A stretch of 64,000 nucleotides of DNA, taken from the IMG/VR virus record IMGVR_UViG_3300045051_000014. One strand, given 5' to 3'. Positions 1 to 58,475 of this stretch are shown here, in pieces (the first letter of the stretch is position 1; every line of letters begins with the position of its first letter). This stretch comes from a virus. Taxonomy: Duplodnaviria > Heunggongvirae > Uroviricota > Caudoviricetes. The notes below the pieces were generated by a model. That model had not been told where the DNA came from. It was given only the letters and a program-made list of their open reading frames with translations, and searched no databases. The translations under genes and the position numbers were made by a program.

Positions 1-2
1 AT

Positions 3-18715: not shown

Positions 18716-19961
18716 GCTACAACTTGCTATCACAAAGTTCGCGACGGATCCTGAGAACGCAGAACTGAACTTCGAACTCGCTTTGCTATACGAAGAGATT
18801 CAGCAGACCGCTGCCGCTATCTCTTATTTCTCCCGCGCATCAGAACGCACACCCGATACGAACCTCGCCTACGAGTGTCTGTGTAAGGTTGGTCTGTGTT
18901 TTGAACGGCAGGGTCGCCGTGGCAATACCGTGCGCGGATTCTACAAGCACGCAATCTGCCTGATGCCGAAGCGCCCCGAAGCGTACTTCCTGCTATCGCG
19001 TTTCTACGAGCGAACCACCGACTACGTGAGTGCGTATCTCTATGCGCAGCAGGGATTAGAACTGGCAGACTTCAATCAGAAGCCTCTGCGCACTTCGGTC
19101 GAATATCCCGGCAAGTATGGTCTGCTCTTCGAAAAGGCAGTGAGCGCATGGTGGTGGGGTAAGTCGCAAGAGGCACGCGACCTGTTCCAAGAACTCAAGG
19201 GTTACGCTTCTGTCATGGATCAAACTCATTGGCAGGCAGTGCAGCGCAATCTCACTAGCTTGGGTGCCGGTCCCGTCGAACATGCGATTCGCCCATACAA
19301 CAAGTATGAGTATGCGCGTCTGCGTTACAAGTTCCCCGGCTCAGAAACGATTGAGCGAAACTACTCTCAGGTCTATCAGGACATGTTTGTTCTGGCAATG
19401 ACAGACGGCAAGCGCGATGGAACGTATGTCGAAGTCGGATCCGGCGATGCCACTCTCGGCAGCAACTCCAAGCTGCTAGAGGAATGGGGTTGGCGCGGCA
19501 TCGGCTTGGAGTGGAATCAGGAGTTGGTCAATACGCATTTGAAGTACCGCCGAAACACTGTGCTGAGACAAGACGCATTGCAGACGGACTACTCACTAAT
19601 CTGCGGTAAGCTTTGCGACGAGAAGGGAGTCATCGACTATCTACAGTTAGATTGCGAACCTTCCGAAGCTACGTACAAGATTCTCACGATGATTCCATTC
19701 GACACATACAAGTTCCGTGTCGTCACGTTCGAACATGATCACTATGTCGATATGACAGGTCAGTATCGTGAACTATCTCGCAACTATCTCAGATCGAAGG
19801 GTTACGTCATGGTGGTCAACGATGTATCACCCGACGAGAAGGCAACATTCGAAGACTGGTGGGTTAATCCGCAACTGGTTAAGCCGGAAACTCTTCTACG
19901 CATGAGACAAGTGACCGACAGCGTAACCAACATTAACAGGTACATGTTCCCAAATGACTAA
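18708..19961 (+). CDS. TPR-repeat protein with C-terminal methyltransferase-like domain
   Basis: N-terminal TPR-like helices; YVEVGSGDATLGSN glycine-rich SAM-binding-like motif. Confidence 0.5.
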   Translation: MDKLQLAITKFATDPENAELNFELALLYEEIQQTAAAISYFSRASERTPDTNLAYECLCKVGLCFERQGRRGNTVRGFYKHAICLMPKRPEAYFLLSRFYERTTDYVSAYLYAQQGLELADFNQKPLRTSVEYPGKYGLLFEKAVSAWWWGKSQEARDLFQELKGYASVMDQTHWQAVQRNLTSLGAGPVEHAIRPYNKYEYARLRYKFPGSETIERNYSQVYQDMFVLAMTDGKRDGTYVEVGSGDATLGSNSKLLEEWGWRGIGLEWNQELVNTHLKYRRNTVLRQDALQTDYSLICGKLCDEKGVIDYLQLDCEPSEATYKILTMIPFDTYKFRVVTFEHDHYVDMTGQYRELSRNYLRSKGYVMVVNDVSPDEKATFEDWWVNPQLVKPETLLRMRQVTDSVTNINRYMFPND

Positions 19962-21645: not shown

Positions 21646-22325
21646 TAACAATGGATTACGTATTCAAAGATAGCTATGAGTTCACGACAGACTGGTTTAG
21701 CTCAAATGTGGTGTTGTGGAATGCGATTATCGCGAAGCATCAGCCTCGCCGCGTTCTTGAGATTGGCAGTTTCGAAGGACGTTCTGCCACCCATCTAGTA
21801 CAAGAGGTTAGAAAGTACCACAACGACCCGATTGAATTGGTCTGTGTCGATTCGTGGGAAGGTGGTGTCGAACATGCCGGAATCGACTTCAATTCGGTCG
21901 AAGGTCGATTCGACAGGAACATGCAGAAATTGGTGGATTCCACCTTTGATCTTTCTATCTGGAAGAAGAAGGGATTGTCACATGTCGCACTTGCCGAATT
22001 AATCATGGAGAATGCCGCGCCGTTTGATCTGGTCTACATCGACGGATCCCACATGGCATCTGACGTATTGCTAGACGCTACCATGGCATTCAAGTTGTTG
22101 AAGGTCGGCGGAATTCTGATATTCGATGACTATGAATATGGAACTCCCGAGCTTATGGATAAACCACATGAGCATCCGCACATTGCCATTGAAGCATTCA
22201 TCGAAGTGAATGCCAACAAGCTTGCGTTCGTACAATTCAAGTCAAAGGATGAATCCGGTAACGAAGTCAACCTTCGCGACCAAACAAGACTCTATCAGAT
22301 GTACCTAGAAAAGAAAGCCGACTAA
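21642..22325 (+). CDS. class I SAM-dependent O-methyltransferase
   Basis: VLEIGSFEGRSATHL (motif I) and LVYIDGSHMASDV...GGILIFDDY typical of Methyltransf_24/CmcI family. Confidence 0.7.
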   Translation: MITMDYVFKDSYEFTTDWFSSNVVLWNAIIAKHQPRRVLEIGSFEGRSATHLVQEVRKYHNDPIELVCVDSWEGGVEHAGIDFNSVEGRFDRNMQKLVDSTFDLSIWKKKGLSHVALAELIMENAAPFDLVYIDGSHMASDVLLDATMAFKLLKVGGILIFDDYEYGTPELMDKPHEHPHIAIEAFIEVNANKLAFVQFKSKDESGNEVNLRDQTRLYQMYLEKKAD

Positions 22326-22352
22326 ATATTCAATCATTCAAAGGAGTTTCTC

Positions 22353-22559
22353 ATGGCAGAACTAGAACGAGAATTGCACTGTGAGAATTGCGGTGGTCAT
22401 TGCCGCATCATCTACGATTCCGAACAGGTTCACTACGATCCCGAAACTTGCCCGTTCTGTGGCGAGATTGCCGGGACTGTTGTTGACGAAGATTGGGAAG
22501 AGTTCGAAGACGATGGACTAGGCGATGACGACGATGACAATGACTCTAATTGGAATTGA
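22353..22559 (+). CDS. small acidic zinc-ribbon protein
   Basis: CENCGGHC...CPFCGE, poly-D/E tail; RBS AAAGGAG. Confidence 0.45.
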   Translation: MAELERELHCENCGGHCRIIYDSEQVHYDPETCPFCGEIAGTVVDEDWEEFEDDGLGDDDDDNDSNWN

Positions 22560-23187
22560 TTATAGTCTGACTTGCCCTGCCGTCTGTGTCGCTAACAGTA
22601 AGAACTTTGACGACTGTTACTTCTACTTCCTGCATGAGAACAAGAAGCACCATGGGTTCACTTTCGAAGATCACATTCTAGGTGATCCTCATGACGAGTA
22701 CCTGACGGATCAGCAACGCTACGAGAACATTGCATCTTGGGTGCTGAACATCCTATCATCCTTCGACAAGGAATCGGTATACATACTCATTGAGGACTAC
22801 GCTTTCGCGGCAAAGGGACGAGTGTTCAACCTTGCTGAGAACTGCGGACTCCTCAAGTATCTCCTGTATAAGAACGGCTACAAGTTTGCTACCATTGCGC
22901 CTAGCGTCATTAAGAAGTACGCAACGGGCAAGGGCAACGCGAACAAGGAAGCCATGTGGCTTGCGTTTTTTGAATTGACCAACCGCGACCTTGTGGGTGT
23001 CTATGGTCCCAAGACCAGAACGCTTACCTCGCCGGTTACTGATATCATTGACTCCTACTATCTTACACGATGGATGCACGATAGCCTAGAAAACGAAGAA
23101 GAATCGGAGAAAATGAATCGTGGCACAAACAAAGCAAAACCAAAGCCAAAACCAAAGAAAGGAAAGCGAAGTGATAACCAATTGTGA
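22525..23187 (+). CDS. RuvC-like Holliday junction resolvase candidate
   Basis: N-terminal LIGIDYSLTCPAVCVA and later YILIEDYAF acidic motifs resembling RuvC fold nucleases. Confidence 0.45.
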   Translation: MTTMTMTLIGIDYSLTCPAVCVANSKNFDDCYFYFLHENKKHHGFTFEDHILGDPHDEYLTDQQRYENIASWVLNILSSFDKESVYILIEDYAFAAKGRVFNLAENCGLLKYLLYKNGYKFATIAPSVIKKYATGKGNANKEAMWLAFFELTNRDLVGVYGPKTRTLTSPVTDIIDSYYLTRWMHDSLENEEESEKMNRGTNKAKPKPKPKKGKRSDNQL

Positions 23188-23539
23188 TGCAATCGTTTTC
23201 GGCTCCTATCAACAGGAAGCCAATGTCCACACTATCATGACGTTCATGCAGTCCAAGCATGGTCACAAGGCAGAACCTCATGAGTGCGGACACCGATTCA
23301 ATATCGTGTTGTTTGATAAGCTAGAACCCGAAGAGAAGGACGTAGAAATCTTCACTGCCATTCTAGGCGACCCGAAGGGTTACGTCGAGCGCATGGGCAA
23401 GGCAGGATATCATGGTCTGGTAGTCAAGCAGAAGGCGTGCAAGGCAAAGGAAATCAAGGAAGTCTTTTCCAGAGTTCTTCATGGCTATGGCTTTGAAGAG
23501 AAACTAATTAAGAAGGTAATCCGCAAAACGGTGGTATAA
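23120..23539 (+). CDS. hypothetical protein (start uncertain; GTG 23171 or ATG 23237 possible)
   Basis: ORF overlaps upstream gene; RBS AAAGGAAAG before GTG 23171. Confidence 0.4.
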   Translation: MAQTKQNQSQNQRKESEVITNCDAIVFGSYQQEANVHTIMTFMQSKHGHKAEPHECGHRFNIVLFDKLEPEEKDVEIFTAILGDPKGYVERMGKAGYHGLVVKQKACKAKEIKEVFSRVLHGYGFEEKLIKKVIRKTVV

Positions 23540-23541
23540 TC

Positions 23542-24516
23542 ATGAAGCGATATATTGTGACGGGTGGCGCGGGATTTCTCGGCAGTCATCTGTGTGAACG
23601 TTTGATGGAACTGGATGAAACCTGTAAGGTATTTGCTGTAGATAACCTGTCATCTTCGAACGGTGACAATCTTCACAAGCTGCGCAAGTATGGCTACAAT
23701 CGTTTTGAGTTTGCTGAACTCGACGTATGCAAAGAGAATACGTGGTGGCAGTTGGATCATCATGGTCCCTTTGATGGCATCTTCAATCTGGCTTGCCCCG
23801 CATCCCCACCGTTCTATCAGAACATGCCCATTGAGACTACTCTCACTTGTGTACTAGGAGCGCACTATGCCTTGGAATACGCAACGAAATGGGGATGTAA
23901 AGTTCTCCAAACATCTACTTCGGAAGTTTACGGTGATCCAGAGGTTTCTCCTCAACCGGAATCGTACCGTGGCAAGGTCAATTGCTTTGGACCGCGAGCG
24001 TGCTACGATGAGGGCAAGCGTGCTGCCGAAGCTCTCTTCTTCGACTACCAGAAGCAAAGCGGTACAGATATTAGGGTGGTCCGTATTTTCAATACTTACG
24101 GTCCTCACATGCTTGCTAATGATGGTCGCGTGGTAAGCAACTTCATCATGCAGGGACTCAAGGGCGAAGACCTCACCATCTACGGTGACGGCACGCAGTC
24201 GCGTTCTTTCTGTTATGTCGAAGACCTGATCAACGCAATCATGATTGTCTGGAAGTCTAATTACAAGGCTCCGGTCAATATCGGTAATCCAAAAGAGTTC
24301 ACGATGCTTGAACTTGCGGAGAAGGTAATTAGAATTACAGGTGGTAAATCCAAATTAGTCTTTAAGGATCTGCCTACCGACGATCCTCTTCAACGCTGTC
24401 CCGACATTTCCCTAGCGAAATCATTGGGTTGGGTGGGACCGAGAATTGAACTTGACGAGGGGCTACGAAATACTGTACAATACTTCCTGAGTCGAGCATT
24501 ATCGACTAGGAGATAA
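23542..24516 (+). CDS. UDP-glucuronate decarboxylase-like NAD-dependent epimerase/dehydratase (SDR)
   Basis: IVTGGAGFLGSHLCERL Rossmann motif, catalytic YDEGKRAAE (YxxxK); length 324 aa like UXS/ArnA C-domain. Confidence 0.8.
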   Translation: MKRYIVTGGAGFLGSHLCERLMELDETCKVFAVDNLSSSNGDNLHKLRKYGYNRFEFAELDVCKENTWWQLDHHGPFDGIFNLACPASPPFYQNMPIETTLTCVLGAHYALEYATKWGCKVLQTSTSEVYGDPEVSPQPESYRGKVNCFGPRACYDEGKRAAEALFFDYQKQSGTDIRVVRIFNTYGPHMLANDGRVVSNFIMQGLKGEDLTIYGDGTQSRSFCYVEDLINAIMIVWKSNYKAPVNIGNPKEFTMLELAEKVIRITGGKSKLVFKDLPTDDPLQRCPDISLAKSLGWVGPRIELDEGLRNTVQYFLSRALSTRR

Positions 24517-42571: not shown

Positions 42572-42666
42572 GTTCCTGTGGTGTAACGGCAGCACTCCAC
42601 TCTTATAAGGTGGCAATGGCGGCAGATTACCGCATGGTCTAGGTTCGAATCCTAGCAGGAACACCA
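42572..42666 (+). tRNA. atypical 95-nt tRNA-like gene, anticodon ambiguous (TAT or GAT depending on which internal hairpin is the anticodon arm)
   Basis: perfect acceptor gttcctg/caggaac + ACCA, canonical T-arm ctaggTTCGAATcctag, D-arm gtgtaacggcagcac, but two internal hairpins (ccact-cttataa-ggtgg and gcgg-cagatta-ccgc). Confidence 0.45.
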
Positions 42667-42927: not shown

Positions 42928-43002
42928 GCGGGTAAGGTGTTAATAGATACACGGCGGTCTTCCAAACCTCAGTTGTGGGCGCGATACCCACTACCCGCTC
43001 CA
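42928..43002 (+). tRNA. tRNA-Gly(TCC), T-loop CGCGATA
   Basis: acceptor gcgggta/tacccgc, loop ctTCCaa, discriminator U + CCA; resembles phage-type tRNA-Gly. Confidence 0.7.
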
Positions 43003-44165: not shown

Positions 44166-44241
44166 AGCGGAAGGGTGAAACGGTTTACATTCTAGCCTCA
44201 TAAGCTAGAGACATTGGGTTCGACTCCCATGACCGCTACCA
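44166..44241 (+). tRNA. tRNA-Met(CAT)-like with imperfect acceptor (5 bp + AA/GA mismatches at 6-67,7-66)
   Basis: anticodon ctagc/gctag loop ctCATaa, T-loop TTCGACT, ACCA end. Confidence 0.45.
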
Positions 44242-44333: not shown

Positions 44334-44407
44334 GTCCGATTAGCTTAAAAGTGAAGCACCGTGCTGATAACGCGGAGAAGTAGGAGCATTACCTACATTG
44401 GACACCA
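44334..44407 (+). tRNA. tRNA-Ile(GAT), T-loop AGCATTA
   Basis: acceptor gtccgat/attggac, D gctt-aaaagtg-aagc, anticodon ccgtg/cgcgg loop ctGATaa (canonical Ile loop). Confidence 0.6.
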
Positions 44408-44592: not shown

Positions 44593-44678
44593 GCGGAAGT
44601 AGCCTAGCGGTTAGGCACTTGCTTGCCAAGCAAGAGTGCGAAAGCCAAACGCGAGTTCGAATCTCGTCTTCCGCTCCA
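44593..44678 (+). tRNA. tRNA with anticodon GCC (Gly) but 86 nt with ~16-nt variable region
   Basis: perfect acceptor gcggaag/cttccgc, class-II-like D-arm gcc-tagcggtta-ggc, anticodon cttgc/gcaag loop ttGCCaa, extra agtgcgaaagccaaac before T-arm. Confidence 0.5.
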
Positions 44679-44679
44679 A

Positions 44680-45279
44680 TTAGCGTGGATCGTACCTGTA
44701 ATCAGAATGATACATGTTGACGATCCCGCGTCTTAGCTCAGAAGTAAGTTCAAGGTTAGGTATGAAGTTCGGCTTTTCGTTTTCAACGGGAATGTCGATT
44801 GCCATGCCGCCGAAGATACCAATGAGTTTTCTGGCTTCCGATTCGAAGTCATGAAAGTTGAGAACGTTCATGTTAGGATGATCAAACCAATCGGACTGCG
44901 GCTTGAAGCCAATAATGTCGGTGCGTTGAATCCTCTCTAGCAGACGATCCGGATGATTCATCTTATCTCTTAGATGTTGCGGAAGAGCGTTGTATGATTC
45001 TTCATCCAACGGTTCCGGCATACGAATACCAGTGAATGATTCGGGAAACAGTTTGATCAGGACGGTTCGATACGTGCGCAGAAAGTTGTACGCGGATACG
45101 AAACGTTCTACAGGGTCACGCCAGAAAGCGTAACCACTTGAATCTAAATACGCAGTGCTTGGAGTCTCATGCAGACTTCCGACATTCCTGCCGTAAGGTT
45201 TCAATAAGTTTCGAATGGTAGTCGAACCAGTTTTCGGCACCAGATAGAATGCGTGCTTGTTGTCATGACTAATGATCAT
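44680..45279 (-). CDS. sulfotransferase-family protein (PAPS-binding PKTGSTT motif)
   Basis: N-terminal FYLVPKTGSTTIRNLL resembles sulfotransferase 5'-PSB loop; only sizeable minus-strand gene, embedded in tRNA array. Confidence 0.55.
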   Translation of the reverse strand: MIISHDNKHAFYLVPKTGSTTIRNLLKPYGRNVGSLHETPSTAYLDSSGYAFWRDPVERFVSAYNFLRTYRTVLIKLFPESFTGIRMPEPLDEESYNALPQHLRDKMNHPDRLLERIQRTDIIGFKPQSDWFDHPNMNVLNFHDFESEARKLIGIFGGMAIDIPVENEKPNFIPNLELTSELRRGIVNMYHSDYRYDPR

Positions 45280-45439
45280 GCACGTATTTAGGGGAAGATC
45301 ATGAACTTCGAAAGAAACAGAGCATATTACTGGCGGCAGGCGCGAGCATGTTTCAAAGCCGGTTTCAAGTTCCTTCGAAGAGCAATCTTCCTTCCAAAAA
45401 GATAATGTCTCTTAAGCTAATCTAGTGAAAGCGCAGGTC

Positions 45440-45590
45440 TGAAAAGCCTGATAGGTTGGAGCGTAACCAACAGGGGACACCAGTTTCGGGATGTTTACAG
45501 CAAACCAAATACCTCGCCAAATCTGAGGGGCTGTCCAATGGGGACTGTGCGCTAGGGTTCGAATCCCTGCCTACTAGCACAACCATCCCG
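45440..45590 (+). ncRNA. tRNA-like / Y RNA-like module (ACAGCAAACCAAAT + T-arm-like GGTTCGAATCCC, no CCA)
   Basis: motif at 45497-45510; hairpins cctc..gagg, gtcc-aatg-ggac; TTCGAAT T-loop at 45557-45571 without matching acceptor. Confidence 0.4.
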
Positions 45591-47332: not shown

Positions 47333-47624
47333 ATTTACTGAGTCGAGCTAACGCAGGCAACTGAGGAAGTTCGCGACTCACGCAGGAATCGTGTGGGAGC
47401 CGAAAGGCGTCTTACCACCGTGATATAGTGAGCAACACAAACAGAGCGTGGGAAATTCCTGCCTATACGTTCGGGTTGTGGCAAAGATGAATGTTAGCAT
47501 AGAACAGAATCGCGGCTACGGACTCAGTAATTCGAAATAGCTAACCCATACGTGTCAAAAGGATATGTCCGAAACAAGCGTAATTCGAATGAGGCTTGTT
47601 AGACGGTGGGTTGGCGGTACCTAT

Positions 47625-49744: not shown

Positions 49745-50323
49745 GTGTGTTTTATGACTCCTAAGATTCTAATTGCAGACAGCGCAGGCAACCCTAAAGA
49801 TTGGGTTTCTCTTGACTACGCAACCCACTACCTCGCATCCGATAAGGTTGTGTGGCAGGCAGGTTCGATCATCAAGACCTACCGTGGCGGCTACAATGCT
49901 GCGACGGGCGAACGCTCGACTCTGGACATTCACTCCATCCTAGGTATTTCCGGTAAGCTGCTAGGCGACAAGTTCTTCACCAGAACTTCCGTCTACACCG
50001 ACCGTGAGATTCTCTACGCTCGCGACAGATACCTCTGCGCGTACTGTGGAGAAGAGTTCGATGCGTACAAGCTTACCATCGACCACGTAATGCCGCAGTC
50101 TCGCGGTGGACGTAACGTTTGGCAGAACTGTGTTACTGCGTGCAAGACATGCAACCACAAGAAAGCCGACCGCACGCCAGAAGAGGCGAAGATGAAGTTG
50201 CTGTATGTTCCATACGCTCCTAACATGTTCGAAAAGATGATTCTTAAGAACCGCAACATCCTTGCGGATCAGATGGACTTCCTCAAGGCTCGCGTCCCTA
50301 AGACCTCTAGAGTCTTCCTGTAA
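49745..50323 (+). CDS. HNH endonuclease
   Basis: CAYCG...TIDHVMPQSRGG...NCVTACKTCNHKK HNH/zinc motif. Confidence 0.7.
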   Translation: MCFMTPKILIADSAGNPKDWVSLDYATHYLASDKVVWQAGSIIKTYRGGYNAATGERSTLDIHSILGISGKLLGDKFFTRTSVYTDREILYARDRYLCAYCGEEFDAYKLTIDHVMPQSRGGRNVWQNCVTACKTCNHKKADRTPEEAKMKLLYVPYAPNMFEKMILKNRNILADQMDFLKARVPKTSRVFL

Positions 50324-50406
50324 GCCGTTCGGCAGGCTCCCTAGGCTACCCTACCGGTGCCTAGGTGCGCCCCGCTACGGGCTTTATAGGCGGTCCTAGG
50401 GCATAT

Positions 50407-50432
50407 CGTAAGTTGTTGATTTATAAGGGGTT
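50407..50432 (+). repeat. intergenic element CGTAAGTTGTTGATTTATAAGGGGTT
   Basis: consensus copy followed by TATAAT box and ORF 50474. Confidence 0.55.
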
Positions 50433-50473
50433 GAAACACTTGTGTTTTAGCCCCTTTTTGCTATAATGGTTGT

Positions 50474-50863
50474 ATGACTACTAAGCCTGTCTTTTGGATT
50501 CAGGGACTCCATATTACTGAGGGTCCGGAACTCCTGCGCAAGTGTTTCACCGAAACTCGTATCTGGCGCGGCAACGATCCGCGTCCGATTGTTCTCGGCG
50601 GCGACGGTTATTGGCAGTGGGGCGTTTCTGCGTACCGCAACAACCACAAGGGTTTTTGTTGGACTCAGGCTCTTCACGATGGTCTGGAAGGTTTCCATTC
50701 GACCATCTTTCACAGTGACCCCGACGCACGTTTTTGCGTGCATTCGGGTCATGCCGACTATGCTCACGTTGAGCGTATTTGGAATCTGGTCAACGAAAAT
50801 GTTGCAGTGCCAGATGATTTCCCCGACGAGTTCGGCGGCATCGGCAAGGCAGGAGTTTGCTAA
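50474..50863 (+). CDS. hypothetical protein
   Basis: 129 aa, TATAAT-like box upstream within repeated element. Confidence 0.5.
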   Translation: MTTKPVFWIQGLHITEGPELLRKCFTETRIWRGNDPRPIVLGGDGYWQWGVSAYRNNHKGFCWTQALHDGLEGFHSTIFHSDPDARFCVHSGHADYAHVERIWNLVNENVAVPDDFPDEFGGIGKAGVC

Positions 50864-50867
50864 GATT

Positions 50868-51317
50868 ATGGGAATTCTATATATTATCAGGGGTGTGTCT
50901 GGTTCGGGCAAGACGACTCTCGCGCAGAAGATGGCAATCGAAAAGGGTTGCCAGTATTTTGAAGCTGACATGTGGTTCGTGCGCGGCGACGGTGAATACA
51001 TTTTCGACGCTCGCGAACTGCCGCGAGCGCACCGGTGGTGTCAGGATCAGGTGCGCAATGAGATTGCGAACGGTCGGGATGTTATCGTGTCGAACACGTT
51101 CACCCGCGAATGGGAAATGCAGGAGTACATTCGCTGCGCTTCCCTTCACAACTATCACACGGTAGTCATTGAGTGCCGTGGACAGTATCCGAATGTACAT
51201 GGATTGACCGAAGAGGCAGTAGCGAAACAGGTAGCACGCTTCGAAAGCAATGACGAGATTCGCGCAAGGAATTCTCGTTATGACGATGGACACGTTACCT
51301 TTCTACTGAATGATTGA
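50868..51317 (+). CDS. P-loop polynucleotide kinase-like protein (Pnk kinase-domain-like)
   Basis: Walker A IIRGVSGSGKTTLA at N-terminus, ~150 aa; adjacent to RNA-ligase-like and phosphoesterase genes. Confidence 0.55.
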   Translation: MGILYIIRGVSGSGKTTLAQKMAIEKGCQYFEADMWFVRGDGEYIFDARELPRAHRWCQDQVRNEIANGRDVIVSNTFTREWEMQEYIRCASLHNYHTVVIECRGQYPNVHGLTEEAVAKQVARFESNDEIRARNSRYDDGHVTFLLND

Positions 51318-52203
51318 AATGCATGTGATAGACAGACAGTTGCGCGAGTTTGCTGAGTCCAATCCGGACTTAGTATCCGTTCGCGTTTCTCTTCGCTATC
51401 CGCGTCTGCGCGTAGTGAAGTACAAGCACAAGGTTTTCTACAAGTCTCTCTGGACTCCTGAGTTGTGCGAAATGCGCGGCTTAGTTGTCGATGAAGACTG
51501 GAACGTGATCGTGCGTCCGTTCCGCAAGATTTTCAACCGCTTCGAAAACGGCACCGACTTCCCATTGGATGCCGACGTTGCGGCTGCGCGTAAGGTCAAT
51601 GGCTTTATGGCAGGCTTGACGGTGGACGATGAATACGGAACGATTGTTTCGACAACGGGTTCGTTGGATTCGCCATTCGTTGCGATGGCTGAGAAGTATT
51701 TGCTGCCGTTGAAGGATCGCGGTCTGATCAACGGTGTGACCTATCTGTTCGAAATTGTGGACCCACAGGATCCGCATATCATCGAAGAGAAGGTCGGTGC
51801 GTACCTGATTGGTGCGCGAGCAGTCTGTTCGAAGATCACGCTCCTAGAGTGTGACTTGGACGAGATTGCAGCAGGAATGGGTGTCATGCGTCCCGAGTGG
51901 AAGCGTGCGCCGTTCGCTGAAATTGTCGCGGAGACTAAGGCTTGCAAGCATGAGGGTTTCGTGTGTTACGACACTTCGAACGGTCATGCGCTCAAGATCA
52001 AGTCTCCGTATTATCTAACTAAGAAGTTCTTTTCGCGGGTTCGACCAGAGAAGTTGACGGTGGATTGGCTACAGGCTAATCGCGGTAACTTTGATGAAGA
52101 GTTCTACGGATTGATCGACTATATCTCTGCAAGCCGAGACTTTTTCGTTGCTATGTCTCCGGAAGATCGGCGTGCATACATTGAGGATTATTTGTCACTA
52201 TGA
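51310..52203 (+). CDS. ATP-dependent RNA ligase-like nucleotidyltransferase (motif I KVNG)
   Basis: AAARKVNGFMAGL lysine-nucleotidylation motif variant; 297 aa. Confidence 0.45.
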   Translation: MIEMHVIDRQLREFAESNPDLVSVRVSLRYPRLRVVKYKHKVFYKSLWTPELCEMRGLVVDEDWNVIVRPFRKIFNRFENGTDFPLDADVAAARKVNGFMAGLTVDDEYGTIVSTTGSLDSPFVAMAEKYLLPLKDRGLINGVTYLFEIVDPQDPHIIEEKVGAYLIGARAVCSKITLLECDLDEIAAGMGVMRPEWKRAPFAEIVAETKACKHEGFVCYDTSNGHALKIKSPYYLTKKFFSRVRPEKLTVDWLQANRGNFDEEFYGLIDYISASRDFFVAMSPEDRRAYIEDYLSL

Positions 52204-52769
52204 CTGAACGTATTTGGTTTACGTCCGACACACATTTCGGACACAAGAACATTTTGAAGTTTTGCCCTGAGTCTCGACCGGTTAAGACCGTAGAAGAGCA
52301 TGATGCGCGATTGATTCGAAACTGGCAGGAGCAAGTCGCTCCGCAGGATCGCGTCTATCACTTGGGCGACTTTTTCTTCTGCAACGGCGACCGGGCTAAG
52401 AGAATTCTTGACCAGTTGCCGGGACAGATTCACTTCATTCACGGCAACCACGACAAGGTGATTTCGTCTAACCACGATATCCGCTCGCGGTTCGTATCCG
52501 TGTCTGACTACAAGGAACTGCGGATTGAGGAAATCAAGGTCTGCCTGTTCCACTTCCCTATCTACGAGTGGCATCACATCCACTACGGATCGTTCCACTT
52601 CTACGGTCACGTTCACGGTTCGGTACAAGTACCGGGTCGCGCAATGGACGTAGGTGTGGATACCCGTCCCGGTGGCGACATGAAGCTTTGGTCTTGGGAA
52701 GAGTTGAAGAGACTCATGCTCAAGCGTGAGATTCGTACCCACCACAACAACGTAAAGGTTGAAATGTAA
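52200..52769 (+). CDS. calcineurin-like metallophosphoesterase (candidate RNA 2',3'-phosphatase)
   Basis: WFTSDTHFGHKNI, YHLGDFF, IHGNHD motifs. Confidence 0.75.
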   Translation: MTERIWFTSDTHFGHKNILKFCPESRPVKTVEEHDARLIRNWQEQVAPQDRVYHLGDFFFCNGDRAKRILDQLPGQIHFIHGNHDKVISSNHDIRSRFVSVSDYKELRIEEIKVCLFHFPIYEWHHIHYGSFHFYGHVHGSVQVPGRAMDVGVDTRPGGDMKLWSWEELKRLMLKREIRTHHNNVKVEM

Positions 52770-53094
52770 TATGAGTCTTGATGTAAGTCTTGTTAAAGTG
52801 ATGCCAACCGAAATCTATTCGGACAACATCACCCATAATTTGAATAAGATGGCACAGGAAGCCGGATTGTATGACGCACTCTGGCGACCTGATGAAAACG
52901 GTCTTACGACTGCGGCTGATCTTATTCCATTTCTGGAAGAGGGATTGCGCAAGCTTTGTGCAGACCCCGCACACTATGAGCAATTCAATCCGGCAAACGG
53001 GTGGGGTAGCTACGTTGGTTTGAAGGTATTCGTCCGCGACTACCTAGAAGCCTGCCGTGCCAATCCGGATGCAAAAGTAGAAGTGAGTAGATAA
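52759..53094 (+). CDS. hypothetical protein
   Basis: 111 aa. Confidence 0.45.
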   Translation: MKCNMSLDVSLVKVMPTEIYSDNITHNLNKMAQEAGLYDALWRPDENGLTTAADLIPFLEEGLRKLCADPAHYEQFNPANGWGSYVGLKVFVRDYLEACRANPDAKVEVSR

Positions 53095-53095
53095 C

Positions 53096-53521
53096 ATGCG
53101 TAAAGAATTAGACGATGCATTGTGTGAAAAGTATCCCAAGATTTTCGAACAGAGACATTGGGATATGAGCAAGACCTGTATGTGTTGGGGATTCCCCGGT
53201 GACGGGTGGTACGACATTCTCGACAACCTTTGCGGTGCCATTCAGGACTATTGCGATAACGTGAAACGCTACGATGAAGAGACTAAGCTATTGGTTCCGG
53301 CTTGCAAGCAAGTTGTGGCAACACAAGTCAAAGAGAAGTTCGGTGAACTCCGTTTCTACTTCGAAGGTGGAAACGAGACTATTCATGGAATGATAACAAT
53401 GGCAACCTACATGAGCAAGCGCACCTGCGAAGAGTGTGGTAAGCCGGGAAAGATTCGTCCCGGTGGATGGGTTCGAACCCTCTGCGATAAGCACGCGAAG
53501 AGAAAGCATGTTCGTTCTTAA
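53096..53521 (+). CDS. hypothetical Cys-rich protein
   Basis: 141 aa, CEECGKPGK. Confidence 0.45.
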   Translation: MRKELDDALCEKYPKIFEQRHWDMSKTCMCWGFPGDGWYDILDNLCGAIQDYCDNVKRYDEETKLLVPACKQVVATQVKEKFGELRFYFEGGNETIHGMITMATYMSKRTCEECGKPGKIRPGGWVRTLCDKHAKRKHVRS

Positions 53522-53900
53522 TAAGAAAGACCTAGAGTACAGTTGGTTCTCCGGTACGGGTGCCGGTGGGCAGCACAGGAACAAGCACATGAATTGCTTG
53601 CGCCTCAAGCATGTCCCATCCGGCATTCAGACGACCGGACAGAATCATCGGGATCGAATCTCTAATGAGCGTGAAGCCATGGAGAAGTTGATCGCTCGCG
53701 TGCGCTCGTTCTATCATCCCGAAGTGCAGAAGGAACGCTTCCGCGCAAAGGAACAGGTTCGTTCTTATCGCGAGCCTGACAACATCGTGAAGGATCATGC
53801 ATCCGGCGAAGTGTTCTCTTACAAGGAAATCGTCTTAGATGCGGACCCCGAAGAATTAGAAAAAGCCATGGCAGCAAGGCGCAATGCGCTAAGTGCCTGA
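53508..53900 (+). CDS. peptidyl-tRNA hydrolase / ArfB-like class-I release-factor-domain protein (GGQ motif)
   Basis: SGTGAGGQHRNKHMN GGQ motif; ~130 aa like ArfB/YaeJ. Confidence 0.7.
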   Translation: MFVLNKKDLEYSWFSGTGAGGQHRNKHMNCLRLKHVPSGIQTTGQNHRDRISNEREAMEKLIARVRSFYHPEVQKERFRAKEQVRSYREPDNIVKDHASGEVFSYKEIVLDADPEELEKAMAARRNALSA

Positions 53901-53921
53901 TTGTTAAGCTAGATTACATGC

Positions 53922-53950
53922 TTGACTTTTCCATGAACATCGTGAGATAA
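53922..53950 (+). promoter_or_regulatory. sigma70-like promoter TTGACT-N17-GATAAT upstream of DNA ligase
   Basis: -35 53922-53927, -10 53945-53950. Confidence 0.5.
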
Positions 53951-53957
53951 TAGTAAT

Positions 53958-54848
53958 ATGAGTAAAACATTCAAACCGATTCTTGCCGGTAAGTTCGACG
54001 CAAGTAAACAGAAGTTTCCTGTACTCGCATCCGCAAAGCTTGACGGCGTGCGCTGCATCATCATCGACGGTGTTGCAATGTCGCGAAGCCTCAAGCCGAT
54101 TCCGAATGAATACGTTCAGAAACAGATCGGCAAGAAAGTCTACAATGGACTCGACGGCGAACTCATGGTCGGGTTTGTCGGCGGCAAGGATGTATACCGC
54201 AACACAGTCTCCGCAGTCATGTCCGAAGACGGCGAACCGAATTTCACCTTTTGGGTGTTCGACAAGGTTCCGCAGAATCCTGAGCGTGCAGACGGTTATT
54301 CAGATCGTCTAGACTCCATCAAGAAGTTCGACGGTGCGCCGCACATCAACGTGCTACCGCATACCCTGATCAAAGATATGGATGCGCTCGACAAGTTCGA
54401 AGCGAAGCAACTAGAGCGCGGCTTGGAAGGCGTGATTCTGCGTTCGCCGCATGGTCCTTACAAGTTCGGTAGATCGTCCACCAACGAAGGCACGCTACTG
54501 AAACTCAAGCGATTCGAAGACTCCGAAGCGACGATCATCGGCGTTGAGGAACTTCTGTCGAATCAGAACGATGCGAAGACCAACAAGCTTGGACACACTG
54601 AGCGTTCCTCACACAAAGAAAACATGGTGCCTATGGGTACGATGGGTGCGCTCAACGTTCGCGACCTCAAGACAAAGGTGGAATTCTCCATCGGCACCGG
54701 CTTCGATGCGGTCACAAGGGATACCTTCTGGAAGACCCGCAATACCGTCATCGGCAAGATCGTGAAATATAAGTATTTTGCAAGTGGTTCGAAGGACAAA
54801 CCGCGATTCCCGGTATTCCTTGGCTTCCGTGACGAGAGGGATATGTAA
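53958..54848 (+). CDS. ATP-dependent DNA ligase (small phage-type)
   Basis: motif I ASAKLDGVRCI (KxDGxR); 296 aa; promoter TTGACT-N17-GATAAT upstream. Confidence 0.7.
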   Translation: MSKTFKPILAGKFDASKQKFPVLASAKLDGVRCIIIDGVAMSRSLKPIPNEYVQKQIGKKVYNGLDGELMVGFVGGKDVYRNTVSAVMSEDGEPNFTFWVFDKVPQNPERADGYSDRLDSIKKFDGAPHINVLPHTLIKDMDALDKFEAKQLERGLEGVILRSPHGPYKFGRSSTNEGTLLKLKRFEDSEATIIGVEELLSNQNDAKTNKLGHTERSSHKENMVPMGTMGALNVRDLKTKVEFSIGTGFDAVTRDTFWKTRNTVIGKIVKYKYFASGSKDKPRFPVFLGFRDERDM

Positions 54849-56001: not shown

Positions 56002-57063
56002 ATGACAAGCCAAACGCACATGTCCGTGTTCATCGGACGTTTTCAGCCGCCGCACAAGGCGCACATTGACACCATTCGGTACGCACTGAAATTCTCCGAC
56101 AAGGTGCTAATTCTAATCGGATCCGCATTCAAGCCATCCGACACTCGCAATCCGTTTTCTCATATCGAACGCAGTCACATGATCAAGACTTGCTTCGATG
56201 CTGACGTTCAAAAGCGTCTTATCTTCGACTATATCTCCGACCATCCATACAACGATCTTGCGTGGGTGAAGAATGTCCAGACTGCCATCGACAATGCTTA
56301 CTACAATAACTTCGGTTGGCAGGACAAGCAGGACATTACTCTGATTGGACACCACAAAGACGAGTCCTCTTACTACCTCGACCTGTTCCCGTCTTACAAG
56401 CAAGCCGAAATGGAAAACCTGTACGGTCTGGATTCCACGAACATTCGTGGACTCTGGTTCGCAGGCAAGGATGCGTGGAAGAACGGCAACATGAAACTGG
56501 TATCACACTCCGTTCCGCAGCCTGTCATGATTCATCTGAATGAAGTCATGAAGGAAGATCGCTACCAGACGCTAGTGAAGGAATACGAGTTTCTGCGCAC
56601 CTACAAGCTACAGTGGTCGCAGGCTCCGTATCCGCCAACCTTTGTCACCGCAGACGCAGTAGTGTCCTGCCTCGGTCACGTTCTACTGGTACAGCGCAAG
56701 GCTGCGCCGGGAGAGGGACTGTGGGCATTGCCGGGAGGCTTCCTCAATCAGTACGAAACGGTGCGTGAGTGCGCCGCTCGCGAACTAGAGGAAGAGACTA
56801 AGATCAAGGTGCCACCCGCACGGCTGCGCGGTTCGATTCGCACAGAGAAGCGATACGATCATCCCGGCAGAAGCCTGCGTGGACGCACGATCACCACCGC
56901 ATTCCACTTCGACCTCTTTGGCGAACGCTCGCTTCCGAAGGTCAGGGGTTCCGACGATGCTGCCGCAGCACGATGGTTCCCTCTCAACGAACTTGTTCGA
57001 CTACAGGACAAGATGTATGAAGATCACTACCATATCGTAACTGATCTTCTCGGCTTGGGTTGA
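56002..57063 (+). CDS. natV: bifunctional NMN adenylyltransferase / Nudix hydrolase (NadM-Nudix)
   Basis: FIGRFQPPHKAH (HxGH), Nudix box GGFLNQYETVRECAARELEEETKI. Confidence 0.85.
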   Translation: MTSQTHMSVFIGRFQPPHKAHIDTIRYALKFSDKVLILIGSAFKPSDTRNPFSHIERSHMIKTCFDADVQKRLIFDYISDHPYNDLAWVKNVQTAIDNAYYNNFGWQDKQDITLIGHHKDESSYYLDLFPSYKQAEMENLYGLDSTNIRGLWFAGKDAWKNGNMKLVSHSVPQPVMIHLNEVMKEDRYQTLVKEYEFLRTYKLQWSQAPYPPTFVTADAVVSCLGHVLLVQRKAAPGEGLWALPGGFLNQYETVRECAARELEEETKIKVPPARLRGSIRTEKRYDHPGRSLRGRTITTAFHFDLFGERSLPKVRGSDDAAAARWFPLNELVRLQDKMYEDHYHIVTDLLGLG

Positions 57064-57105
57064 AGATAGACTTCGACTCGTTTTCAAATGTTAAGGAGTT
57101 TAACA

Positions 57106-58475
57106 TGCGTACCAACTTACTACTAAACACAGACTCGTACAAGGCTTCCCACTGGCTCCAATACCCACCGGGAACAGAGTACGTCTATTCATACATCGAA
57201 TCTCGCGGCGGTCTTCATGACGCGACCGTGTTCTTCGGTCTACAGGCATTCATCAAGGAATACCTCACCGAATCCATCTGCCTCAAGGATATCTACGAAG
57301 CGAAGGAATTCTTTGAGGCACATGGCGAGCCGTTCCACTTCCACGGATGGAACTACATTCTGCGCAAGCACAATGGATATCTGCCGGTGCGTATCTCCGC
57401 GCTGCCAGAAGGAATGCGCGTGCCTGTCGGTACGCCGCTAGTCACCATCGTCAACACGGACCCTGAGTGCTTCTGGCTTACATCGTATCTGGAAACCGCA
57501 CTGCTTCGCGCAGTCTGGTATCCGACGACCGTTGCGACAATCTCACACTACATCAAGACGATCATCAAGCGCGAACTGGAAGACACTGGCGATGTTGCCG
57601 GTCTGCCGTTCAAGCTGCATGACTTCGGTGCGCGTGGCGTATCATCCAATGAATCTTCGATGCTAGGTGGCATGGCGCATCTGGTCAACTTCCAAGGCTC
57701 CGACACCGTAATGGGTATCGTCGGCGCGAAGCGTTGGTACAACGAGCCAATGGCAGGCTTCTCCATTCCGGCAGCAGAACACTCCACGATTACTACATGG
57801 GGTAAGACTCGCGATGGTGAGACTGCGGCATACGCCAACATGGTAGCCAAGTATGGTAAGCCGGGAACGATCTTCGCGGTTGTCTCCGACTCCTACGATA
57901 TCTACAAGGCGTGCGAAGAGATTTGGGGTGGAACGCTCAAGCAGCAAGTCATCGACTCCGGTGCGACTCTCGTAGTCCGTCCTGACTCTGGTGATCCGGT
58001 TGCAGTCACACTTCGCTGCATTCAGATCCTTGACGAGAAGTTCGGTCACACGGTCAACGCGAAGGGATTCAAGGTTCTCAATCACGTTCGACTGATTCAG
58101 GGTGACGGTGTGAACCCAAGTTCCATCGAAGCCATCCTGATGAACTTCAAGGCGCATGGCTACAGCGCAGACAACATTGCGTTCGGCATGGGCGGCGCGT
58201 TGCTACAGCACATGAACCGCGACACGCAGGAGTTCGCAATGAAGGCGAGCGCAATCCGAGTCAACGGCGAATGGCGCGATGTATCGAAGTCGCCAATCGG
58301 TCAGGCTTCGAAAAAGTCGAAGGGTGGACGGTTCACTGTAACATGGGACCGCGACGGTTGGCAGACGATGCCACTGGACGAGACTGTGGAGAATATGTTA
58401 AGTCCGGTCTTCGAAGACGGCAAGCTTTTGCGGGATACGTCTTTTGCACAGGTACGGTATAACAGCACCCTGTAA
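57106..58475 (+). CDS. nadV: nicotinamide phosphoribosyltransferase
   Basis: N-terminal NLLLNTDSYKASHW and overall NAMPT architecture, 456 aa. Confidence 0.85.

What the first reader, a model, noticed from the sequence alone, without database searches (positions are those of the whole stretch)
44680..45279. Only minus-strand gene in the window is a sulfotransferase-like ORF dropped into the tRNA array
199-aa ORF with PKTGSTT 5'-PSB-like motif, transcribed opposite to ~40 flanking + strand tRNAs. Orientation and position suggest a moron or insertion. A phage sulfotransferase could modify glycans, small molecules or nucleic acids. Whether ORF 4591 (nucleotidyltransferase + P-loop kinase) could supply an activated donor is speculative.
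Basis: partly seen in the sequence, partly recalled or inferred. Interest (0 to 1): 0.6.

Follow-up and report, generated by a model that had tools for sequence, protein, structure and literature searches.

The report
Phage sulfotransferase gene inside tRNA array
A real, conserved gene for a small sulfate-transferring enzyme sits backwards inside a phage's block of about 36 tRNA genes; it belongs to an uncharacterised accessory family that in most other phages lies beside the tail-fibre genes, so it is a believable but fairly ordinary find whose target molecule is still unknown.

Summary
Window 44680-45279 (-) is a 199-aa ORF and the only opposite-strand gene among all source gene calls for the window. 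It lies between tRNA-Gly(GCC) and a tRNA-Phe(GAA) in a 36-tRNA array.

It is not a recent insertion. Three diverged lineages keep it in the same slot, while an outgroup relative (L210) has an empty site with the two tRNAs 7 nt apart. This implies a single old gain of a ~720-nt cassette.

Across 28 non-redundant viral lineages the family is normally co-directional within tail-fibre/neck modules of T4-like aquatic phages and Sphingomonadaceae prophages, sometimes next to a 2OG-Fe(II) oxygenase. A conserved CTAAATA-N5-ATG predicts a late, leaderless transcript.

Best reading: a late-expressed, cytoplasmic, PAPS-dependent sulfotransferase using host PAPS, acting on the adsorption apparatus or its glycans. 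The acceptor is inferred, not shown. ORF 4591 shows no link to PAPS synthesis. Viral sulfotransferases are already annotated, so this is a new member of a known kind.

The parts
44680..45279 (-). 199-aa sulfotransferase-family ORF, stop codon included
45217..45237 (-). 5'-phosphosulfate-binding loop, P15-K16-T17-G18-S19-T20-T21
   Evidence: P15, K16, G18, S19, T21 are at least 90% conserved in the 29-sequence alignment. G18 is invariant and T17 at least 90% conserved among 64 diverse relatives.
45169..45171 (-). His37, candidate catalytic base lying between the two PAPS motifs
   Evidence: At least 90% conserved among 64 relatives with a mean column identity of 24%. Its equivalence to the catalytic His/Glu of solved enzymes is inferred from order and spacing only, not from a superposition.
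45094..45126 (-). 3'-phosphate-binding motif, F52-W-R54-D-P56-V-E-R59-F-V-S62
   Evidence: R54, P56 and S62 are invariant; F52 and R59 are at least 90% conserved. A family profile aligns this motif to RNPVDRAFSAY of sulfotransferase 3rnl and RDPVSRYLSEW of HS6ST3.
45285..45291 (-). CTAAATA, a T4-type late-promoter-like element 5 nt upstream of the ATG; the predicted transcription start is the A of the ATG (45279)
   Evidence: The motif occurs 12 times in the window against 4.05 expected; 0 of 100 shuffles reach 12. CTAAATA-N5-ATG is conserved in the window, L001 and L012/L014. CTAAATA starting at -12 is the late-promoter motif reported for T4-like phage Aeh1 (PMC1524935). Function here is inferred.
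45280..45406 (.). 127-nt spacer between the ORF start and tRNA-Phe; part of the inserted cassette
   Evidence: Conserved between the window and L001, almost absent in L012, and absent in the empty site of L210. No sigma-70-like promoter found there.
44593..44678 (+). tRNA-Gly(GCC), convergent with the ORF; 1 nt separates its CCA end from the ORF stop codon
   Evidence: ARAGORN, Rfam 63 bits. The 1-2 nt junction is conserved in L001 and L012.
45407..45479 (+). tRNA-Phe(GAA), divergent from the ORF; missed by ARAGORN
   Evidence: Rfam tRNA at 41 bits. Anticodon loop CT-GAA-AA read. Conserved in L001, L012 and L210.

Best explanation
The ORF encodes a soluble, cytoplasmic, PAPS-dependent O-sulfotransferase of minimal size (199 aa).

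Shown here:
- The gene is real and under purifying selection.
- The predicted fold is that of sulfotransferases.
- The residues that bind the 5'-phosphosulfate (K16, S19/T20/T21) and the 3'-phosphate (R54, S62) of PAPS are conserved, as is a His (H37) between them.
- The gene is an accessory cassette of about 720 nt, gained once between tRNA-Gly(GCC) and tRNA-Phe(GAA) in the ancestor of three lineages of a group of ~172-kb T4-like aquatic myoviruses.
- Its nearest relatives, and most of the family, lie co-directionally in tail-fibre/neck modules.

Inferred:
- The donor PAPS comes from the host. No PAPS-synthesis gene was seen in the 64-kb window.
- The gene is transcribed late from the conserved CTAAATA element as a leaderless mRNA. 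It runs antisense to the tRNA precursor transcript, so its expression is probably uncoupled from, or antagonised by, tRNA-array transcription.
- The acceptor is a component made in the cytoplasm late in infection and tied to adsorption: a tail-fibre protein, or a glycan attached to virion proteins. The phage also encodes a nucleotide-sugar pathway and glycosyltransferases.

Rough split of belief:
- Active sulfotransferase: 0.8.
- Late or leaderless expression: 0.5.
- Acceptor is a virion or fibre component: 0.4.
- Acceptor is a host envelope glycan: 0.25.
- Acceptor is a small molecule or other: 0.2.
- Acceptor is a nucleic acid or tRNA: 0.05.
- Catalytically inactive: 0.1.
For: Enzyme identity:
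- Pfam Sulfotransfer_2 above the gathering cut-off. 35 of 64 diverse relatives hit the same model, and no non-sulfotransferase family is hit.
- AF2 model pLDDT 87.6, pTM 0.83.
- Foldseek PDB top hit is sulfotransferase 3rnl, probability 0.96.
- All five PDB profile hits are sulfotransferases, aligned on the 3'-PB motif.
- BFVD top hits are viral 'sulfotransferase family' proteins.
- Motif conservation.

Real gene: dN/dS 0.19.

Cytoplasmic: no hydrophobic segment, maximum KD19 = 0.81.

Cassette history:
- Same slot in L001/L002/L255 and L012-L015.
- Empty site in L210, with the two tRNAs 7 nt apart.
- L210 is syntenic at 58-78% aa identity and is the outgroup by tRNA identity.

Tail-fibre link:
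- In 47 loci the gene is co-directional with collagen-like or S74-chaperone fibre genes, SBBP propeller proteins, DUF7936 and gp13-like neck genes.
- 16 of 28 lineages have the shared fibre-like protein within four genes, and 6 have a 2OG-Fe(II) oxygenase.
- In an NJ tree the window clade groups with L016 and L003, which have that context.
- In the prophages the gene starts 4 nt after the preceding tail-module gene.

Late expression.

Sugar genes in the window.
Against: - No biochemical evidence exists for this family. Nothing identifies the acceptor.
- Gene neighbourhood is only circumstantial, and in this phage the gene has left that neighbourhood.
- The 'fibre-like' cluster was built by single linkage on crude ORF calls and may be held together partly by low-complexity repeats.
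- The NJ tree is shallow and unsupported.
- H37 was not superposed on a known catalytic base.
- The late-promoter reading rests on a 7-mer and on an analogy with phage Aeh1. The late sigma factor gp55 was not looked for because most of the 172-kb genome lies outside the window.
- A second phage (L032) also carries a family member inside a tRNA array. This could mean the tRNA location is not accidental.
Confidence: 0.5

Rival explanations
1. Host-envelope modification. The enzyme sulfates a host surface glycan or glycolipid precursor at the cytoplasmic face. This would alter the phage's own receptor, so that superinfecting phages or released progeny do not adsorb to infected cells or debris. 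Receptor-modifying genes are often kept next to receptor-binding-protein genes.
For: - The family sits beside tail-fibre / receptor-binding genes.
- In Sphingomonadaceae prophages it lies at the distal end of the tail module, next to defence islands, where conversion genes commonly sit.
- The best fold matches and the Pfam family are carbohydrate sulfotransferases.
- In this phage the gene has its own orientation and putative promoter.
Against: - In the prophages the gene is packed 4 nt behind a tail-module gene and co-directional, suggesting late co-expression rather than expression in the lysogen.
- In lytic T4-like phages it is embedded in the structural operon.
- A late promoter leaves little time to remodel the envelope.
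- No glycan export or flippase partner is seen nearby.
Confidence: 0.25
2. Small-molecule or signalling-molecule sulfotransferase. This would be an auxiliary metabolic or counter-defence gene that sulfates a metabolite, antibiotic-like compound or nucleotide signal, unrelated to the virion.
For: - Phage sulfotransferases are usually listed as auxiliary metabolic genes of unknown role (PMC10580990; PMC8290583).
- The enzyme is very small, with little room for a macromolecule-binding cleft.
- The L032 array carries the gene among metabolic-looking cargo: peroxiredoxin-like and radical-SAM-like ORFs.
Against: The recurrent tail-fibre neighbourhood across many lineages is not expected for a free-standing metabolic gene.
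Confidence: 0.2
3. tRNA or nucleic-acid modification. The enzyme acts on the neighbouring tRNAs or on phage DNA, which would explain why it lives in the tRNA array.
For: - The slot within the array is conserved in three lineages.
- A second, apparently independent occurrence lies in the tRNA array of L032.
- RNA-repair genes and an RNase P-like RNA lie nearby.
Against: - 42 of the 44 other family loci scanned have no tRNA within about 7 kb.
- The closest relatives of the window clade are in fibre/neck modules.
- A related phage with the same array lacks the gene.
- The L032 array is a general cargo hotspot.
- From general knowledge, no sulfated nucleoside or nucleic-acid sulfotransferase is known.
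Confidence: 0.05
4. Catalytically dead or structural protein. The sulfotransferase fold is retained, but the protein serves as a fibre-assembly factor or a PAP/PAPS-binding module without transferring sulfate.
For: - It is short compared with characterised enzymes (199 aa against 250-300).
- Its position in assembly operons would suit a chaperone.
Against: The residues under the strongest conservation across a family with only 24% mean column identity are exactly the PAPS-binding and candidate catalytic ones. This argues for retained chemistry.
Confidence: 0.1

Closest known systems
Pfam Sulfotransfer_2 (PF03567) carbohydrate sulfotransferases, such as heparan-sulfate 2-O / 6-O / 3-O sulfotransferases and NDST (PDB 3f5f, 5t03, 3bd9, 1nst)
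   Same: P-loop-like alpha/beta fold. A 5'-PSB loop PKxGxT(T/S). A 3'-PB motif RDPxxRxxS. A conserved His between the two motifs. HMM score above the Pfam gathering cut-off.
Bacterial sulfotransferase from Alicyclobacillus acidocaldarius (PDB 3rnl)
   Same: Best Foldseek and profile match: probability 0.96 and E = 0.0018. The 3'-PB motif aligns residue for residue.
   Different: 14-16% identity. 3rnl is itself a structural-genomics entry with no known acceptor, so it gives no functional lead.
Annotated viral 'sulfotransferase family' proteins: uncultured Caudovirales A0A6J5KNV5, Synechococcus phage ACG-2014f, Prochlorococcus phage P-SSM7, Ralstonia phage phiRSL1, and giant viruses
   Same: Small (190-285 aa) viral proteins with the same predicted fold. 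The top BFVD hit has E = 4e-11, TM 0.68 and 28% identity. Their biological role is also unknown (PMC10580990).
   Different: The cyanophage proteins are only 14-16% identical. tblastn with four diverse members of this family finds no isolated phage in GenBank. This sequence family is so far known only from metagenomic phages and prophages.
Morons and accessory cargo genes in phage tRNA regions
   Same: A discrete cassette with an empty site in a relative, its own orientation and a putative promoter, and sporadic distribution: 1 of 80 gp13 loci carries a family member. The L032 array likewise carries several cargo ORFs.
   Different: Composition is only mildly atypical. No terminator was found. 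The cassette is old and fixed across three lineages.

Membership tests
PAPS-dependent sulfotransferases (Pfam Sulfotransfer_2, PF03567) | Score above the curated Pfam gathering cut-off | tested here: met
   31 bits against 22, E = 3.7e-7, residues 2-141. 35 of 64 relatives also hit; otherwise only Sulfotransfer_1 and Sulfotransfer_3.
PAPS-dependent sulfotransferases (Pfam Sulfotransfer_2, PF03567) | 5'-phosphosulfate-binding loop with the catalytic Lys (PKxGxT/S-T) | tested here: met
   P15-K16-T17-G18-S19-T20-T21. Conserved across the family.
PAPS-dependent sulfotransferases (Pfam Sulfotransfer_2, PF03567) | 3'-phosphate-binding motif (R-x-P-x-x-R-x-x-S at a strand-helix junction) | tested here: met
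   R54-D-P56-V-E-R59-F-V-S62. R54, P56 and S62 are invariant in 64 relatives. Aligned to the same motif in 3rnl, HS6ST3 and SOT16/18.
PAPS-dependent sulfotransferases (Pfam Sulfotransfer_2, PF03567) | Catalytic base (His or Glu) positioned at the acceptor hydroxyl | tested here: inconclusive
   H37 is at least 90% conserved and lies between the two motifs, as in HS2ST and HS6ST. No residue-level structural superposition was available. The loop has lower pLDDT, about 67.
PAPS-dependent sulfotransferases (Pfam Sulfotransfer_2, PF03567) | Sulfotransferase fold | tested here: met
PAPS-dependent sulfotransferases (Pfam Sulfotransfer_2, PF03567) | PAPS-dependent sulfate transfer to an acceptor | not testable with these tools
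   Requires enzymology.
P-loop nucleoside / nucleotide kinases (rival assignment) | Walker A GxxxxGK[ST] and kinase-like full-length fold match | tested here: not met
PAPS synthesis enzymes (ATP sulfurylase / APS kinase), for ORF 4591-5865 | Match to ATP-sulfurylase or APS-kinase models or structures | tested here: not met
   PHROG 'cytidyltransferase' at 1e-50 plus a weak P-loop. Pfam gives only a sub-threshold AAA_19 hit. NCBIfam and PDB give only weak adenylate-kinase-like P-loop matches.
T4-type late gene | Late-promoter element at about -12 to -6 (CTAAATA variant, as reported for phage Aeh1) | tested here: met
   CTAAATA lies 5 nt before the ATG and is conserved in three lineages. The motif is enriched about 3-fold in the window and sits 24-69 nt upstream of nine other genes. 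Presence of gp55 and actual timing were not tested.
Moron / mobile accessory cassette | Presence/absence polymorphism with a clean empty site in a relative | tested here: met
   L210 has tRNA-Gly(GCC) and tRNA-Phe(GAA) 7 nt apart, against 728 nt in the window. L210 is the outgroup.
Moron / mobile accessory cassette | Own promoter and terminator, and atypical composition | tested here: inconclusive
   There is a candidate late promoter. No terminator was found. GC3 z = -1.1 and codon-usage z = -1.1, rank 14 of 83.

The most novel reading that the evidence does not exclude
Some T4-like aquatic phages and Sphingomonadaceae prophages may post-translationally sulfate their own adsorption apparatus. 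A prolyl-hydroxylase-type 2OG-Fe(II) oxygenase would hydroxylate collagen-like tail fibres, or glycosyltransferases would decorate them. This sulfotransferase would then O-sulfate the new hydroxyls, giving negatively charged fibres. Sulfated phage virions have not been described. In this lineage the gene was moved into the tRNA array and is read as a leaderless late mRNA antisense to the tRNA precursor.
Probability: 0.15. Interest if true: 0.75.

Novelty: new member of a known kind. Interest (0 to 1): 0.4.

Why it matters
Sulfotransferases are repeatedly listed among phage auxiliary genes, yet the OM43-phage paper states that their biological function in phage genomes 'remains unclear' (PMC10580990). 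This analysis defines a broad family: 1152 representatives at 50% clustering. It has no member in isolated phages, its PAPS-binding residues are intact, and it has a consistent home beside tail-fibre genes. That turns a vague annotation into a testable hypothesis: sulfation of the adsorption apparatus or of its receptor. The empty-site comparison also gives a clean example of a phage tRNA array acting as a landing pad for cargo genes. If the acceptor proved to be a virion protein or glycan, it would add sulfation to the small list of known phage virion modifications.

Tried and rejected
Searches that found nothing or could not run:
- GenBank phages, with window DNA (megablast) and with four family proteins (tblastn): no match.
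- PDB by sequence with the single protein: only a chance hit. With the 29-sequence profile: also only a chance hit. Only the 64-sequence profile reached sulfotransferases, and weakly.
- PHROGs: only a sub-threshold Gal-3-O-sulfotransferase hit.
- NCBIfam: nothing.
- The afdb50 fold library was unavailable.
- Sigma-70 promoter and intrinsic-terminator scans around the ORF found nothing relevant.
- The canonical T4 late motif TATAAATA is absent from the window.

Ideas rejected:
- ORF 4591 as a PAPS synthase.
- The AAA_33 kinase at 50868-51317 as an APS kinase. It sits in an Rnl1 / phosphoesterase RNA-repair module, its PHROG matches are an ATPase family and (weakly, E = 7e-8) polynucleotide kinase, and its APS-kinase score is noise (14 bits against a cut-off of 127).
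- A tRNA-directed function.
- Recent horizontal acquisition.

Attempts that fell short:
- I tried to fetch the gp13 region of the window's own lineage, to see what now occupies the ancestral slot. The gp13 family is too abundant, and the relevant contigs were not among the 80 loci returned. Those loci served instead as a control.
- A 15-nt tRNA-Phe pattern was too unspecific and had to be filtered by BLAST.
- L255 was first taken for a fourth lineage, but it carries the same protein as L001.

Full report
**1. The observation**

Window 44680-45279 (minus strand) is an ATG-initiated 199-aa ORF. ARAGORN finds 32 tRNA genes between 41806 and 47784, all on the + strand. An Rfam scan adds four more, giving 36.

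The ORF's stop codon lies 1 nt from the CCA end of tRNA-Gly(GCC) (44593-44678). Its start lies 127 nt from a tRNA that ARAGORN missed (45407-45479). The anticodon loop of that tRNA reads CT-GAA-AA, which makes it tRNA-Phe.

The claim 'only minus-strand gene in the window' was checked against the gene calls that the source databases hold for the parent contig (JGI 3300044712 Ga0453684_0000425, 172,269 bp; the window is its bases 1018-65017, reversed) and for a Logan assembly. Four overlapping views cover the whole window, and every called gene is on the + strand except this one.

**2. A real gene**

Against the 77%-identical orthologue in L001, dN = 0.136 and dS = 0.729, so dN/dS = 0.19.

About half the genes in this phage lack a Shine-Dalgarno-like sequence (15 of 34 have one). 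Its absence here is therefore not an argument against the ORF.

Composition is only mildly atypical. GC3 is 0.497 against a genome mean of 0.573 (z = -1.1). The codon-usage log-likelihood has z = -1.1, rank 14 of 83.

**3. What the protein is**

- Pfam Sulfotransfer_2 (PF03567) matches residues 2-141 at 31 bits; the gathering cut-off is 22.
- A search of 5.8 billion proteins returned 119 relatives. A full HMMER pass over 1.84 billion cluster representatives found 1152 at E<=0.001 and 217 at E<=1e-10.
- In an alignment of 64 diverse representatives (mean column identity 24%), the invariant residues are G18, R54, P56, S62 and D193. T17, H37, F52, R59, Q128, W131, L140 and N167 are at least 90% conserved. 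These are the 5'-phosphosulfate loop (PKTGSTT, residues 15-21) and the 3'-phosphate motif (RDPVERFVS, residues 54-62) that define PAPS-dependent sulfotransferases, plus a His between them. The heparan-sulfate 2-O and 6-O enzymes carry their catalytic base in that position (established knowledge of those enzymes; the equivalence was not verified by superposition here).
- 35 of the 64 members hit Sulfotransfer_2. Two hit Sulfotransfer_1, one hits Sulfotransfer_3, and nothing else is hit.
- An AlphaFold2 model built on 29 sequences has pLDDT 87.6 and pTM 0.83.
- Foldseek's top PDB hit is sulfotransferase 3rnl, probability 0.96.
- A family profile hits only sulfotransferases in PDB, aligned on the 3'-PB motif.
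- The protein has no hydrophobic segment, so it should be cytoplasmic. It has no paralogue in the window.

**4. Donor supply**

None of the source gene calls in the window carries an ATP-sulfurylase or APS-kinase domain.

Nothing in Pfam, NCBIfam or PDB connects it to PAPS synthesis.

The 149-aa AAA_33 kinase at 50868-51317 belongs to an RNA-repair module. Host PAPS is therefore the likely donor. This is an inference, and 108 kb of the genome lies outside the window.

**5. History of the locus**

The same arrangement, tRNA-Glu(CTC) ... tRNA-Phe | ORF (antiparallel) | tRNA-Gly(GCC), is found in two further lineages. One has protein 77% identical (L001/L002/L255). The other has protein 58% identical (L012-L015).

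A fourth relative, L210, comes from a 172,580-bp contig. It has the same array order, and its flanking protein genes are syntenic with window 35.8-40.9 kb at 58-78% amino-acid identity. In L210, tRNA-Gly(GCC) and tRNA-Phe(GAA) are separated by only 7 nt, and no family member is present.

Over 16 shared tRNAs, L210 is 76-78% identical to the other three lineages. Those three are 82-92% identical to each other. L210 is therefore the outgroup. The simplest history is one gain of a ~720-nt cassette in the common ancestor of the three lineages. A precise loss in L210 cannot be excluded.

**6. Where the family normally lives**

The phage itself is a distant relative of T4-like aquatic myoviruses. 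Its DUF6267 protein is 31-34% identical to those of cyanomyoviruses, Pelagibacter phage HTVC008M and Methylophilales phage Melnitz.

A pattern scan of IMG/VR returned 53 loci with a family member. Using crude ORF calls on 47 loci, the gene is almost always co-directional with its neighbours. The recurrent neighbours are:
- a fibre-like protein family 2-4 genes upstream, in 32 of 47 loci;
- very large collagen-like or glycine-rich proteins with S74 chaperone C-termini;
- an SBBP beta-propeller protein;
- DUF7936 and DUF6065;
- gp13/14/15-like neck genes downstream;
- a 2OG-Fe(II) oxygenase (PF13640).

After collapsing to 28 lineages at 70% identity, 16 have the fibre-like neighbour and 6 have the oxygenase.

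The Sphingomonadaceae homologues (Novosphingobium, Porphyrobacter) are in prophage tail modules. The order is 513-aa fibre, S74 fibre, 463-aa SBBP protein, sulfotransferase (starting 4 nt after the previous gene), then a 123-aa ORF, followed by defence islands.

The family is accessory. Only 1 of 80 gp13-bearing T4-like loci (723 kb) contains a member.

In a rough NJ tree the window's clade groups with L016 and L003, both in the fibre/neck context.

Of the 44 other family loci scanned for tRNAs, only L032 has any. It carries a 166-aa member co-directionally inside a differently ordered 21-tRNA array. That array also holds peroxiredoxin-like, radical-SAM-like and Band_7-like cargo ORFs (annotated by eye). 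Its copy groups elsewhere in the tree. tRNA arrays thus look like landing pads for cargo genes, not functional partners of this enzyme.

**7. Expression signals**

No sigma-70-like promoter or intrinsic terminator flanks the ORF.

CTAAATA lies 5 nt upstream of the ATG, and CTAAATA-N5-ATG is exactly conserved in all three lineages despite divergent flanks. The 7-mer occurs 12 times in the window against 4.05 expected; 0 of 100 shuffles reach 12. Nine + strand copies lie 24-69 nt upstream of called gene starts.

Nolan et al. [quoted passage not shown] With that geometry the transcript would begin at the A of the ATG, giving a leaderless late mRNA. This agrees with the family's usual place in late structural operons, but it remains an inference.

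The ORF is convergent with tRNA-Gly and lies inside the tRNA transcription unit. Its mRNA would therefore be complementary to the tRNA precursor. This suggests mutual interference (inference).

**8. Interpretation**

The identity as a PAPS-type sulfotransferase is well supported. The acceptor is not known.

The neighbourhood evidence points to the adsorption apparatus: either the fibres themselves or glycans on virion proteins. This phage also encodes an RmlA/RmlB-like plus DegT nucleotide-sugar pathway, glycosyltransferase-methyltransferase fusions and two 2OG oxygenases. The alternative is the host receptor.

I favour a virion-side acceptor because the gene is tightly embedded in late tail operons, even in prophages. 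The margin over the host-envelope reading is small. A tRNA or nucleic-acid target is unlikely.

**9. Comparison with what is known**

Small 'sulfotransferase family' proteins are already annotated in uncultured Caudovirales (BFVD top hit E = 4e-11, TM 0.68), in cyanophages ACG-2014f and P-SSM7, in phiRSL1 and in giant viruses. Viromics papers list sulfotransferases as auxiliary genes, and one of them (PMC10580990) states that their function in phage genomes is unclear. No paper in the library uses the phrases 'phage sulfotransferase' or 'phage-encoded sulfotransferase'.

This sequence family has no member in isolated GenBank phages. The finding is therefore a new member of a known kind. It is credible and modestly interesting, mainly for the tail-fibre association and the clean empty-site evidence.

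**10. Caveats**

- The neighbour analysis uses crude longest-ORF calls and single-linkage clustering.
- The tree is a distance tree without support values.
- IMG/VR loci include redundant contigs.
- The promoter assignment rests on a short motif.
- Only 64 kb of a 172-kb genome was examined.

Noticed in passing
window 47336-47529 (+); also L001 7274-7467 (-): A 194-nt RNase P-like RNA lies inside the tRNA array, between tRNA-Leu(GAG) and tRNA-Arg(CCT). It matches Rfam RF00373 (archaeal RNase P) across the whole model at 48 bits (40 bits when rescanned on a shorter stretch) against a gathering cut-off of 84, with E about 1e-10 to 1e-11. It keeps the catalytic-core motifs GAGGAA-UC, GAAUG and ACAGAA...GGCUA, but the specificity domain is collapsed (89 model positions replaced by 15 nt). 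It is about 90% identical in the 77% lineage. Its substitutions cluster in one hairpin and include 3 compensatory pairs. The one literature search run did not surface a paper on phage-encoded RNase P RNA. It deserves its own analysis.
   Followed up: partly
window 42928-42999, 44166-44238, 44334-44404, 45407-45479 (+): Four tRNA genes are detected by Rfam (37-49 bits) but missed by ARAGORN. They include the tRNA-Phe(GAA) next to the sulfotransferase gene.
   Followed up: partly
window 42572-42666 (+) and 44593-44678 (+): Two unusually long tRNAs. tRNA-Ile(TAT) is 95 nt, and this length is conserved in L001 and L012 (93 nt in L210). tRNA-Gly(GCC) is 86 nt here but 74-75 nt in L001, L012 and L210, because of an extra arm after the anticodon stem.
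   Followed up: no
window 1-3329 and 19954-24516 (+): A nucleotide-sugar toolkit: 4,6-dehydratase/epimerase, NTP_transferase, DegT/EryC1 aminotransferase and a second epimerase. Further on lie a glycosyltransferase-17-like/FkbM methyltransferase fusion (563 aa), a Methyltransf_24 gene and a GDP-mannose-dehydratase-like epimerase. A GT92-like gene lies just beyond the window end. The target of this glycosylation is unknown.
   Followed up: partly
window 49745-54848 (+): An RNA-repair / translation-rescue module lies immediately after the tRNA array: HNH endonuclease, AAA_33 P-loop kinase (best PHROG match an ATPase family, weaker match to polynucleotide kinase), T4 Rnl1-like RNA ligase, metallophosphoesterase, an RF-1-domain (ArfB-like) protein and an ATP-dependent DNA ligase.
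   Followed up: no
window 56002-58475 (+): An NAD+ salvage pair: an NMN adenylyltransferase-Nudix fusion (CTP_transf_like + NUDIX) followed by nicotinamide phosphoribosyltransferase.
   Followed up: no
window, 11 + strand sites, for example 3331, 4552, 22322, 25989, 34182, 48143, 48515, 61823: CTAAATA is about 3-fold enriched and usually lies 24-69 nt upstream of gene starts. It is probably this phage's late-promoter element, as reported for T4-like phage Aeh1. The canonical TATAAATA is absent.
   Followed up: partly
window 4591-5865 (+): A 424-aa fusion of a cytidylyltransferase-like domain (residues 2-184, PHROG E = 1e-50) and a weak adenylate-kinase-like P-loop domain. It has no Pfam family above threshold and is unrelated to PAPS synthesis on current evidence.
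   Followed up: partly
L032 3975-12353: A different viral contig has a 21-tRNA array interleaved with cargo ORFs: a 166-aa minimal sulfotransferase family member, a peroxiredoxin-like protein, a radical-SAM/SPASM-like protein, a Band_7-like protein and a probable 2OG oxygenase. All cargo annotations are by eye. It illustrates tRNA arrays as cargo hotspots.
   Followed up: partly
L029 / L049 (contig IMGVR_UViG_3300043446_000566): One 84-kb viral contig carries two paralogues of the family about 8 kb apart, flanking a 1917-aa collagen-like tail fibre with an S74 chaperone C-terminus.
   Followed up: no
L210 2100-2920 compared with window 54012-54848: In the outgroup relative, the DNA ligase gene (73-87% aa identity) lies upstream of the tRNA array. 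In the window it lies downstream in the RNA-repair module. This is a rearrangement between related phages.
   Followed up: no
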